From: a virus
Lineage: Duplodnaviria; Heunggongvirae; Uroviricota; Caudoviricetes
DNA length: 41,043 nt
Reading direction: 5' to 3' (one strand)
Virus record (IMG/VR): IMGVR_UViG_2563366998_000006
Position numbers and translations under genes: made by a program. The notes beneath the pieces are model-generated. The model was not told the origin of the DNA. It did not search any database and was given only the letters and a program-made list of their open reading frames with translations. Positions 8,406 to 9,304 of the stretch are shown here, one piece after another (position 1 is the first letter of the stretch; each line of letters begins with the position of its first letter).

Positions 8406-8949
8406 GCATCATTGGAAAGTGGAAAAACAACCTGAGTGGTACGTGAAAGCTGTCAGAAAAACTATCGCGGCATTGCCAGGGGGTTACGCTGAAGCTGCTG
8501 ACTGGCTGGATGTAACAGAGAACGCTTTATTCAACCGCCTTCGTGCAGATGGCGATCAGATTTTCCCGTTGGGATGGGCAATGGTTTTACAGCGTGCTGC
8601 TGGCAATCACCACATTGCGGATGCTGTCGCACAGTCTGCTGGTGGGGTGTTTGTATCACTTCCTGAAATTGAGGAAGTAGAGAACGCCGATATCAACCAG
8701 CGCCTGTTGGAGGTTATTGAACAGATCGGCAGTTATTCAAAACAGATTCGTTCAGCAATTGAAGACGGGGTGGTGGAACCACACGAGCAGGCAGCAATTA
8801 ACGACGAGCTGTACATGTCAATTTCGAAGCTGCAGGAGCATGCAGCACTGGTCTACAAAATCTTTTGCGCTCCAGAAAAGAGTGACGCCCGCGAGTGTGC
8901 AGCTCCGGGCGCCGTGGCGTTTTGTGTCTGTGGAGAAACTAACGCATGA
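8398..8949 (+). CDS. Hypothetical early regulatory protein in the cII position
   Basis: 183-aa ORF with GTG start overlapping the cro stop; family not confidently recognised. Confidence 0.5.
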
Positions 8950-9284
8950 ACAGTTTAACAACACACTACCGTCGCTCGCAACTGATTGCGCTTCCTGTAC
9001 CGGGTGGAAAAGCGAAGGTGGAATATTGCTATGCAGTGAATGTACCAGGTGACAGGGAAATTGTAACCCACAGCTTTGCTGAGTGGGCTGTGGGTGATTT
9101 CAACCGGCAGAAGGAGACAGTCCTTTGCGACAAGTTAACCGCTGGTTCAAAGATCACTACGGAGTGCCCGTCAGAGTCATTCGTTGGGAACCGGAAACAC
9201 AACGGGTTATCTACCTCCGCGAAGGCTATGAGCATGAATGCTTCAGTCCGCTCGAACAGTTTCGTCGTAAATTCAGGGAAATAG
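8946..9284 (+). CDS. Hypothetical protein; C-terminal third looks out of frame (possible frameshift)
   Basis: N-terminal ~65 aa look protein-like, the remainder is Ser-rich low-complexity; a protein-like sequence continues in another frame (see 9125-9304). Confidence 0.3.
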
Positions 9285-9304
9285 AGGTCGGTCATGAGCA
9301 CTAA
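9125..9304 (+). CDS. Small ORF in alternative frame (59 aa, TTG start) or displaced C-terminus of the upstream gene
   Basis: AAGGAGA RBS 7 nt before TTG at 9125; translation [58 protein letters not shown]; overlaps the start of the replication gene. Confidence 0.35.

What the first reader, a model, noticed from the sequence alone, without database searches (positions are those of the whole stretch)
8946..9304. Frame discontinuity just upstream of the replication gene: frameshifted gene or two overlapping small genes
The ORF at 8946-9284 is protein-like for about 65 codons and then becomes Ser-rich junk, while a very protein-like sequence (…[54 protein letters not shown]) continues in another frame to 9304, with a plausible RBS plus TTG at 9125. 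A single-base indel near 9098-9125 would fuse them.
Basis: seen in the sequence. Interest (0 to 1): 0.35.

Follow-up and report, generated by a model that had tools for sequence, protein, structure and literature searches.

The report
Two conserved genes sharing one stretch
The apparent frame break is not an error: two real small prophage genes (ymfM, reported as an SOS cell-division inhibitor, and a DUF4222 gene) are written over the same 160 bases in different frames, and this layout is conserved and selected across enterobacterial prophages, so it is unclear which product causes the published ymfM phenotype.

Summary
ORF A (8946-9284, 112 aa) is the e14-prophage gene ymfM. ORF B (9125-9304, TTG start, SD AAGGAG 9111-9116, 59 aa) is a complete DUF4222 protein in the -1 frame. 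They overlap by 160 nt.

The "frameshifted gene" reading is refuted. The same two-frame layout occurs in about 2,000 E. coli genomes, in 79/79 viral contigs, and in Klebsiella, Pantoea, Enterobacter, Citrobacter, Kluyvera, Raoultella and Leclercia prophages. Each module also exists as a separate gene elsewhere.

DUF4222 carries the amino-acid constraint in the overlap. The ymfM tail evolves freely and is predicted disordered, but it is kept stop-free by selection: 0/107 stop-creating codons at risk sites against 44% purine-ending at control sites, and tree-aware P=1e-4. The ymfM frame always stops 9 nt (3-6 nt in two loci) before the next gene's ATG, in the same frame, whichever of six downstream genes is present. 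This suggests translational coupling.

Annotations disagree: K-12-style records call ymfM, RefSeq PGAP calls only DUF4222. The published ymfM clone that causes filamentation would also encode 53 of the 59 DUF4222 codons. This is a new, well-supported example of a known kind, an overprinted phage gene pair.

The parts
8398..8949 (+). ymfL (CII/CP76-like regulator). Its TGA stop (8947-8949) overlaps the ymfM ATG, giving an ATGA junction.
   Evidence: Pfam PF06892 E=8.7e-16; NCBIfam NF041471 phage_reg_YmfL, 169.7 bits against a cut-off of 90; RefSeq annotation of the identical record.
8946..9284 (+). Frame A: ymfM-type ORF, 112 aa (ATG 8946, TAG 9282-9284).
   Evidence: ORF list; phrog_1170 full length, E=9.7e-70; 112 aa in 79/79 e14-type viral loci; annotated as YmfM in phage records.
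8946..9124 (+). Unique N-terminal module of ymfM (about 60 codons), coding in frame A only.
   Evidence: Third-position variability is about twice that of positions 1 and 2 in two sequence types. It is a stand-alone 73-aa and 78-aa gene in L116 and L117. AF2 pLDDT is 70-82 with a beta-beta-beta-alpha-alpha layout. phrog_20047 is an N-module-only family.
9095..9097 (+). Last stop codon (TGA) in the DUF4222 frame upstream of its start. It limits where frame B could begin or be entered.
   Evidence: Translation of the frame. Relatives have a frame-B stop 3-54 nt upstream in all loci but one.
9111..9116 (+). Shine-Dalgarno-like AAGGAG, 8 nt upstream of the DUF4222 start.
   Evidence: Sequence. SD-like GGAG/GGAGG/GAAGG motifs precede the start in relatives.
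9125..9304 (+). Frame B: DUF4222 gene, 59 aa (TTG 9125, TAA 9302-9304), -1 relative to ymfM.
   Evidence: Pfam PF13973, 67.3 bits; phrog_1343; RefSeq WP_001250269.1 at this position in the identical record; start codon ATG/GTG/TTG at the same site; variability at codon positions 1/2/3 of 0.16/0.10/0.455; AF2 pLDDT 81.
9125..9284 (+). 160-nt dual-coding overlap. DUF4222 is constrained at the protein level. The ymfM tail (residues 61-112) is unconstrained in sequence but kept stop-free.
   Evidence: stop avoidance at risk codons; tail disordered; 27 variants of A against 2 variants of B in 51 distinct DNAs.
9282..9293 (+). Conserved junction: the ymfM stop TAG (built from DUF4222's rare ATA codon plus G), then a 9-nt spacer containing GAGG, which serves as SD for the replication gene.
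   Evidence: In 23/23 loci the frame-A stop is followed by 9 nt (3 or 6 nt in two loci) and the in-frame ATG of the next gene, whichever of six downstream gene types is present. ATA or TTA is used at this codon in 19/22 sequences.
9294..10235 (+). Replication-initiator-like gene (HTH_36), same frame as ymfM. Its first 11 nt overlap the end of DUF4222.
   Evidence: Pfam HTH_36 E=4.3e-11; annotated as 'DNA replication protein O' or 'primosomal protein' in phage records.

Best explanation
This is a conserved out-of-frame overlap of two real genes in the early-right operon of an e14/SfII-type lambdoid prophage.

The operon is presumably transcribed when the LexA-like CI repressor (7355-8047, minus strand) is inactivated. 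Ribosomes leaving ymfL re-initiate at the ATGA junction and translate ymfM. Its first ~60 codons encode a small folded module. Its last 52 codons are an 'overprinted', disordered tail read in the +1 frame of the older DUF4222 gene. That frame ends at TAG 9282-9284, inside the SD of the replication gene and 9 nt before its in-frame ATG, so terminating ribosomes can re-initiate there.

Independently, 30S subunits start at AAGGAG/TTG 9125 and make the 59-aa DUF4222 protein, an SH3-like beta-barrel. Its stop lies 11 nt inside the replication gene.

Selection keeps the ymfM frame stop-free across DUF4222. The most likely purpose is to carry translation through to the next gene; a second, non-exclusive possibility is that YmfM needs a tail of some length.

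Shown: both ORFs, their conservation, the frame-specific selection, their separability and the junction geometry. Inferred: translational coupling, relative expression levels and the reason for stop avoidance.
For: (1) The same layout occurs in 2,011 E. coli records, in 79/79 viral loci and in 22/22 loci from at least 8 genera.
(2) DUF4222 is a full Pfam domain, has an ATG/GTG/TTG start at a fixed site with an SD, shows strong third-position bias in variability, gives a confident fold, and exists stand-alone in Yersinia, Providencia, Elizabethkingia and phiNP phages.
(3) The ymfM N-module shows a coding signature, is stand-alone in L116 and L117, and gives a moderately confident fold.
(4) Stop avoidance in frame A: P(open) is 0.014-0.106 per locus, yet the frame is open in 28/31. 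The +2 frame has a similar expectation and is closed in 31/31. Stop-creating codons are used 0/107 times at risk sites against 188/426 purine-ending at control four-fold sites. On a tree, 13/13 changes at risk sites are pyrimidine-to-pyrimidine against 24/56 at control sites, P=1e-4.
(5) Where no upstream ORF reads into DUF4222 (L116, phiNP, EKP1), its +1 frame contains stops.
(6) The frame-A stop is followed by 9 nt and the in-frame ATG of the next gene in 23/23 loci with six different downstream genes. In SfV and ST64B the stop is lost and frame A is fused to an Ash/Rha ORF.
(7) Expression of the ymfM ORF causes filamentation (bioRxiv 10.1101/2020.11.19.390815).
Against: There is no direct evidence here (proteomics, ribosome profiling) that either product is made from the native locus, and no paper with ymfM ribosome-profiling data was found. 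The tail's amino-acid sequence is essentially unconstrained, so it may have no function as a peptide. DUF4222's own stop also overlaps the replication gene's start, so coupling through ymfM is not obviously needed. The TTG start is weak. A local hairpin could pair the SD with UCCUUU just before the TTG, but it is not significant (z=-1.5) and not conserved. In Providencia PSTCR8lys and Yersinia YeP2 the +1 frame is also open across the DUF4222 core although no annotated upstream ORF reads into it, which the read-through explanation does not account for. PGAP does not call ymfM at all.
Confidence: 0.85

Rival explanations
1. Frameshift pseudogene or sequencing error. The ancestral gene was a single ~119-aa protein (N-module plus DUF4222), and a 1-nt indel near 9098-9125 broke it in this genome.
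For: A single-base indel would fuse the frames. Fused proteins of 118-119 aa exist in databases: P0060, and P0065 with 14 members.
Against: The two-frame layout is the rule in about 2,000 E. coli genomes and in all diverged genera examined. Frame-B stops lie 3-54 nt upstream of the DUF4222 start in relatives. DUF4222 has its own SD and start. DUF4222 relatives are 59-86-aa single-domain proteins. The two modules occur as separate genes in L116, and the N-module occurs alone in L117. There is no homopolymer in the zone. The fusions are rare near-identical indel variants of the E. coli sequence.
Confidence: 0.02
2. Programmed -1 ribosomal frameshift. Ribosomes starting at ymfM shift into the DUF4222 frame to make an N-module-DUF4222 fusion in addition to YmfM.
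For: Frame B is -1 relative to frame A. An SD-like AAGGAG lies upstream of the junction, and internal SDs stimulate frameshifting in dnaX and prfB (established knowledge). Rare genomic fusions show that a fused protein is tolerated.
Against: There is no X XXY YYZ heptamer in frame A anywhere in 9098-9281 of the window, and no positionally conserved one in 23 loci. The zero frame continues for 53 codons instead of stopping soon after a shift site. DUF4222 has a start codon that varies only among ATG, GTG and TTG. No Rfam frameshift element was found.
Confidence: 0.04
3. Only DUF4222 is a gene (the RefSeq/PGAP view). The 112-aa ORF is a fortuitous long ORF.
For: PGAP annotates only DUF4222. The ymfM product has no Pfam or NCBIfam family. 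The tail is low-complexity and unconstrained.
Against: The N-part shows a coding signature in frame A in two sequence types and is a stand-alone ORF in L116 and L117. There is an ATGA junction with ymfM's upstream neighbour ymfL. Stop avoidance survives internal and tree-aware controls. The stop-to-ATG junction is conserved. AF2 gives a partly confident fold.
Confidence: 0.05
4. Only ymfM is a gene (the K-12/EcoCyc-style view). The DUF4222 frame is not expressed.
For: K-12-style and several phage annotations list only YmfM. The filamentation work treats the locus as one gene. The E. coli start codon is the weak TTG.
Against: In the overlap, variation is concentrated at DUF4222 third positions (0.455 against 0.10-0.16). 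Only 2 protein variants occur among 51 distinct DNAs. DUF4222 is a Pfam family with stand-alone members in distant phages and gives a confident AF2 fold.
Confidence: 0.04

Closest known systems
ymfM (b1148) of E. coli K-12 cryptic prophage e14, proposed to be the SfiC SOS-inducible division inhibitor (Ansari et al., bioRxiv 10.1101/2020.11.19.390815)
   Same: It is the same gene: a 112-aa ORF about 96-97% identical to the K-12-type loci L008 and L010, with the same neighbours (ymfL upstream, replication gene downstream). It matches phrog_1170 over its full length.
   Different: The window comes from a complete SfII/Kati-like prophage with an intact replication gene, not the decayed e14. The published work does not mention the nested DUF4222 frame.
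Pfam DUF4222 (PF13973) small phage proteins
   Same: Frame B is a full-length member, identical to RefSeq WP_001250269.1. As in distant phages, it sits immediately upstream of, and overlaps the start of, the replication gene.
   Different: In distant phages (phiNP, EKP1, L116) it is a free-standing gene whose +1 frame contains stops. Here, and throughout an Enterobacteriaceae-wide clade, another ORF is read through it.
Overprinted, out-of-frame nested phage genes, such as lambda Rz/Rz1, the overlapping genes of phiX174 and the MS2 lysis gene (from established knowledge)
   Same: There are two products from one DNA stretch in different frames. The older frame is constrained, and the newer frame is compositionally odd, fast-evolving and disordered.
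   Different: Here the newer frame is only the C-terminal extension of an otherwise ordinary upstream gene. What seems to be selected is its openness and its end point, 9 nt before the next ATG, rather than its sequence.
SfV orf37 / ST64B sb41 (Ash or Ash+Rha proteins)
   Same: The locus and frames are the same: an ORF starting at the ymfL stop runs through a DUF4222 gene in the +1 frame.
   Different: There the frame-A stop and the downstream ATG are missing, so the ORF continues into an Ash/Rha protein of 278-385 aa. In L115 the two are separated by TAA plus 9 nt plus ATG.

Membership tests
Pfam DUF4222 (PF13973) | HMM score above the gathering threshold over essentially the whole domain | tested here: met
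   67.3 bits against a 27-bit cut-off, profile positions 3-52 of 53.
Pfam DUF4222 (PF13973) | Small single-domain protein with a compact fold | tested here: met
   Relatives are 59-86 aa and single-domain. AF2 pLDDT is 81 with a five-strand barrel and SH3/KOW/Tudor-like matches at TM about 0.6, though E-values are weak.
YmfM of prophage e14 (phrog_1170) | Full-length sequence match and the same genomic position (after ymfL, before the replication gene) | tested here: met
   phrog_1170 E=9.7e-70 over residues 1-112; synteny.
YmfM of prophage e14 (phrog_1170) | Inhibits FtsZ-ring formation and causes filamentation when expressed | not testable with these tools
   Reported for the K-12 ORF cloned in pBAD24. 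By coordinates, that ORF also contains the SD, the TTG and 53 of the 59 DUF4222 codons (inference; primer table not available).
Out-of-frame overlapping (overprinted) gene pair | Both frames open over the overlap more often than expected from the other frame's protein sequence | tested here: met
   P(open) is 0.014-0.106 per locus, with the frame open in 28/31 loci. The +2 control frame is closed in 31/31.
Out-of-frame overlapping (overprinted) gene pair | Evidence of selection acting on each frame separately | tested here: met
   Frame B shows purifying selection. Frame A shows stop avoidance with controls and a coding signature in its unique part.
Out-of-frame overlapping (overprinted) gene pair | Independent translation initiation of the nested gene | tested here: inconclusive
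   An SD and an ATG/GTG/TTG start are conserved at one position, with an upstream in-frame stop. There is no experimental initiation data.
Out-of-frame overlapping (overprinted) gene pair | Both protein products detected | not testable with these tools
   No proteomic or ribosome-profiling data are accessible.
Programmed -1 ribosomal frameshift site | Slippery heptamer X XXY YYZ in the zero frame, positionally conserved | tested here: not met
   None in window 9098-9281, and none conserved across 23 loci.
Programmed -1 ribosomal frameshift site | The zero frame terminates shortly after the shift site | tested here: not met
   Frame A continues 53 codons, to 9284.
Frameshift pseudogene | Intact single-frame orthologues predominate in relatives | tested here: not met
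   The two-frame layout is found in all diverged loci, and fusions are rare variants.

The most novel reading that the evidence does not exclude
The SOS-inducible division-inhibitor activity attributed to YmfM (SfiC) may come wholly or partly from the nested DUF4222 protein, or may require both products. The published clone and deletion affect both frames. DUF4222 is the strongly conserved, well-folded product, whereas half of YmfM is an unconstrained disordered tail. A second novel element is that the ymfM tail may be maintained not as a peptide but as a 'ribosome conveyor', whose only selected properties are having no stops and ending 9 nt before the next gene's ATG.
Probability: 0.25. Interest if true: 0.65.

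Novelty: new member of a known kind. Interest (0 to 1): 0.45.

Why it matters
There are three reasons it matters.

1. It resolves a standing annotation conflict in one of the commonest E. coli prophage modules, present in about half of complete E. coli genomes (2,626 of 5,426) and including e14 of K-12. K-12-style records list only ymfM, RefSeq lists only DUF4222, and the evidence says both are real.

2. It affects how the ymfM/SfiC experiments are read. The cloned "ymfM ORF" and a ymfM deletion perturb two conserved proteins. Simple frame-specific mutations could settle which one blocks FtsZ-ring formation.

3. It is a clean, statistically controlled natural example of overprinting in which selection can be seen to act on openness and end point rather than on sequence. 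This is useful for thinking about how new coding sequence arises and about translational coupling across mosaic module boundaries in lambdoid phages.

Tried and rejected
- there is no run of 5 or more bases in 9098-9281, and the sequence is identical in an independent complete genome.
- **Programmed frameshift:** no slippery heptamer and no Rfam element.
- **Regulatory RNA, promoter or terminator in the ymfL-DUF4222 interval:** no promoter-like site, and only weak terminator-like hairpins not above the shuffle expectation in any meaningful way. The only Rfam hit is a spurious miRNA match caused by the repeats in the replication gene.
- **SD-sequestering hairpin at the TTG start:** z=-1.5, and the complementary bases are absent in the Klebsiella relatives. 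Not pursued.
- **Sequence search of the PDB for both proteins:** nothing.
- **Fold search for YmfM:** no meaningful match. For DUF4222 it gave only the generic SH3-like barrel class, so no function was assigned.
- **Short 61-78-aa 'YmfM' proteins as evidence that truncation is tolerated:** most proved to be frameshifts, deletions, contig ends or adapter read-through. Only P0081 and P0070 were informative.
- **Mehta et al. 2004 e14 paper and the Ansari primer table:** neither could be retrieved.

Full report
**What is there.** The window around 8.1-10.3 kb is the early-right operon of a lambdoid prophage:
- a LexA/S24-type CI repressor on the minus strand (7355-8047);
- a cro-like HTH gene (8145-8405);
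- ymfL, a CII/CP76-like regulator (8398-8949);
- the region in question;
- a replication-initiator-like gene (9294-10235).

Frame A runs 8946-9284 (ATG to TAG, 112 aa). Frame B runs 9125-9304 (TTG to TAA, 59 aa) in the -1 frame relative to A, so the two overlap by 160 nt. The last stop in frame B upstream of its start is TGA 9095-9097. AAGGAG (9111-9116) lies 8 nt before the TTG. The ymfM ATG overlaps the ymfL stop (ATGA).

**Identity of the two ORFs.**
- Frame B is a complete DUF4222 domain (PF13973, 67 bits against a 27-bit cut-off, profile positions 3-52 of 53). It is the only CDS that RefSeq's pipeline annotates here, both in a 100%-identical E. coli chromosome and in a K-12-like strain (WP_001250269.1).
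- Frame A is ymfM of the e14 prophage family. It matches phrog_1170 over its full length and is annotated 'YmfM' in several phage records.
- Expression of the K-12 ymfM ORF from pBAD24 blocks Z-ring formation and causes filamentation, and ymfM was proposed to be the long-sought SfiC (bioRxiv 10.1101/2020.11.19.390815).
- So two annotation traditions each recognise only one of the two frames.

**Not a frameshift mutation.**
- The same DNA is found at 95% identity or more in 2,626 of 5,426 complete E. coli genomes. In 2,011 records one place covers at least 80% of the query.
- In 79 of 79 usable e14-type viral contigs, frame A is 112 aa and frame B is 59 aa with a TTG start.
- An unbiased sample collected from the DUF4222 side comprises 18 species-representative genomes plus Klebsiella and Pantoea phages. 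All 22 loci show both frames open, the DUF4222 start at one fixed position (ATG in most, GTG in Citrobacter, TTG in E. coli/Shigella), an SD-like motif upstream, and a frame-B stop 3-54 nt upstream in all but one.
- In-frame fusions of 102-119 aa do exist (P0031, P0053, P0060, P0065). They are rare indel variants of the E. coli sequence.
- There is no homopolymer of 5 or more bases and no -1 slippery heptamer anywhere in the zone where a shift could occur, and none is positionally conserved in relatives. No Rfam element was found.

**Both modules are independent genes.**
- In a metagenomic prophage (L116), the ymfM-type N-module is a free-standing 73-aa gene. It is followed by an inserted KilA-N/ANT gene and then a free-standing 61-aa DUF4222 gene.
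- In Entomohabitans (L117), a 78-aa N-module gene sits directly before the replication gene, and DUF4222 is largely deleted.
- Distant DUF4222 genes in Providencia, Elizabethkingia and Citrobacter phiNP phages are stand-alone genes immediately upstream of the replication gene, and the Yersinia one is also annotated alone.

**Which frame is selected where.**

| Region | Frame used for phasing | Position 1 | Position 2 | Position 3 |
|---|---|---|---|---|
| Unique upstream part (8946-9124), type 1 | A (ymfM) | 0.16 | 0.17 | 0.31 |
| Unique upstream part, type 2 | A (ymfM) | 0.145 | 0.148 | 0.265 |
| Overlap, types 1+2 | B (DUF4222) | 0.16 | 0.10 | 0.455 |

- In the unique upstream part, third codon positions of frame A vary about twice as much as positions 1 and 2, in two different sequence types of the module, and length differences are multiples of three. 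This part is coding in frame A.
- In the overlap, variation is concentrated at third positions of frame B. DUF4222 therefore carries the amino-acid constraint, and the ymfM tail changes at DUF4222's synonymous rate.
- Within E. coli, 51 distinct DNAs encode 27 YmfM variants, almost all differing in the tail, but only 2 DUF4222 variants.
- AlphaFold agrees. YmfM residues ~10-66 form a moderately confident beta-beta-beta-alpha-alpha unit, and residues 68-109 are disordered. DUF4222 is a confident five-strand barrel (pLDDT 81) of the SH3/KOW/Tudor class. The structural E-values are weak, so this gives a fold class only.

**The tail is nevertheless kept open by selection.**
- Given each DUF4222 protein sequence and the codon usage of neighbouring genes, the +1 frame would be stop-free over 50 codons with probability 0.014-0.106. 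It is open in 28 of 31 loci. The +2 frame has a similar expectation and is closed in all 31.
- The signal sits at specific codons. Leu/Val before Asn/Asp (alignment column 9) uses only CTC, CTT, GTT or ATT. Val before Ile (columns 23 and 33) uses only GTC or GTT. The stop-creating codons, which never appear, make up 62% of Val and 82% of Leu codons in neighbouring genes.
- As an internal control, non-risk four-fold codons of the same gene end in a purine in 188 of 426 cases, against 0 stop-creating bases in 107 risk codons.
- Counting inferred changes on a tree, 13 of 13 substitutions at the three main risk sites are pyrimidine-to-pyrimidine, against 24 of 56 at control sites (P=1e-4).
- Where no upstream ORF reads into DUF4222 (L116, phiNP, EKP1), its +1 frame does contain stops.
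- Unexplained: in the Providencia and Yersinia phages the +1 frame is open across the DUF4222 core although no upstream ORF is annotated as reading into it.

**A conserved end point.**
- The frame-A stop is built from DUF4222's rare ATA (or TTA) codon plus the next base in 19 of 22 sequences.
- In 23 of 23 loci that stop is followed by 9 nt (3 or 6 nt in two loci) and then the ATG of the next gene, in the same frame as ymfM. This holds whichever of at least six unrelated downstream genes is present.
- The spacer carries the SD of that gene (GAGG in the window).
- DUF4222 instead runs 11-47 nt into the next gene, and its C-terminus changes with the module downstream.
- In L115 the next gene is an Ash/Rha regulator that starts at this in-frame ATG. 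In SfV, ST64B and the Stx phages the stop and the ATG are missing, and the ymfM frame is fused to Ash or Ash+Rha.

**Mechanism proposed.** The facts shown are two conserved ORFs, frame-specific selection, separability and the junction geometry.

From these I infer a chain of translationally coupled ORFs: ymfL, then the ATGA junction, then ymfM, then stop plus 9 nt plus ATG, then the replication gene. DUF4222 is nested in this chain and initiated independently at its own SD and TTG.

DUF4222 is the older frame. It has distant stand-alone homologues, a constrained sequence and a good fold. The ymfM tail is an overprinted extension. What is selected in that tail is chiefly its continuity up to the next start codon, and possibly also having a tail of some length.

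The weak point of the coupling idea is that DUF4222's own termination also overlaps the replication gene's start.

**Consequence for the literature.** By coordinates, the cloned 339-bp 'ymfM ORF' contains the SD, the TTG and 53 of the 59 DUF4222 codons, which is the entire Pfam domain. A ymfM deletion removes both genes. The published design therefore does not say which product inhibits division. This is my inference; the primer table was not available. None of the papers found mentions the second frame.

**Verdict.** The frameshift reading is refuted and the overlapping-genes reading is supported. The locus is a new, well-controlled example of a known phenomenon, overprinted phage genes, in a very common E. 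coli prophage module. Its practical value lies in annotation and in interpreting the SfiC/YmfM work.

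Noticed in passing
window 9603-9666 (+), inside the replication gene 9294-10235: Four and a third direct copies of a 15-nt unit (TCTGACCCGTCAAAA; 81% matches) encode the DPSKSDASKS repeats of the protein. They resemble iterons of an origin embedded in the initiator gene, as in lambda O, and they explain a spurious Rfam mir-5880 hit.
   Followed up: partly
L107 (SfV 852-1688), L106 (ST64B 858-2015), L108/L109 (Stx phages), L110 (Hafnia yong2 984-1667): In these phages the ORF that starts at the ymfL stop runs through DUF4222 in the +1 frame and continues into an Ash or Ash+Rha protein. No ATG lies near the start of the Ash domain in SfV, so the true start of these regulators is uncertain and may lie inside or upstream of the DUF4222 overlap.
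   Followed up: partly
L111 951-1154 (Providencia phage PSTCR8lys) and L113 987-1256 (Yersinia phage YeP2): The +1 frame of these distant DUF4222 genes is also open across the whole domain, although no upstream ORF is annotated as reading into it. In Providencia it begins with a hydrophobic, transmembrane-like stretch (MKMLIISIAFIWISGVFAFASYV). It is unclear whether this is chance or another nested gene.
   Followed up: no
window 10687-11046 (+): A 119-aa ORF resembles only the N-terminal DNA-binding domain of LexA. RefSeq calls the corresponding CDS a 'LexA family transcriptional regulator'. It lacks the S24 peptidase part and so could be a non-cleavable LexA mimic carried by the prophage.
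   Followed up: no
frame-A N-terminal modules in L012-L025, L016, L107 and proteins P0075/P0076/P0089: At least three or four different sequence types of the ~55-aa N-terminal module occur. All start with MNS(L/V)T and share a PQL..(I/L)P.PG-like motif. They are joined to the same DUF4222 overlap, which indicates mosaic exchange with a breakpoint near the DUF4222 start.
   Followed up: partly
L012 (contig NZ_JBQPOM010000057.1, titled Vagococcus sp. WN89Y): A typical enterobacterial prophage module with a type-2 N-module and DUF4222 (86% identical) sits in an assembly labelled as a Gram-positive Vagococcus. This is probably contamination or mislabelling of that assembly.
   Followed up: no
protein P0043 (68 aa): This YmfM variant ends in 'LSLIHI', the translation of a Nextera/Tn5 mosaic-end adapter. 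It shows that some database variants of this protein are assembly artefacts.
   Followed up: no
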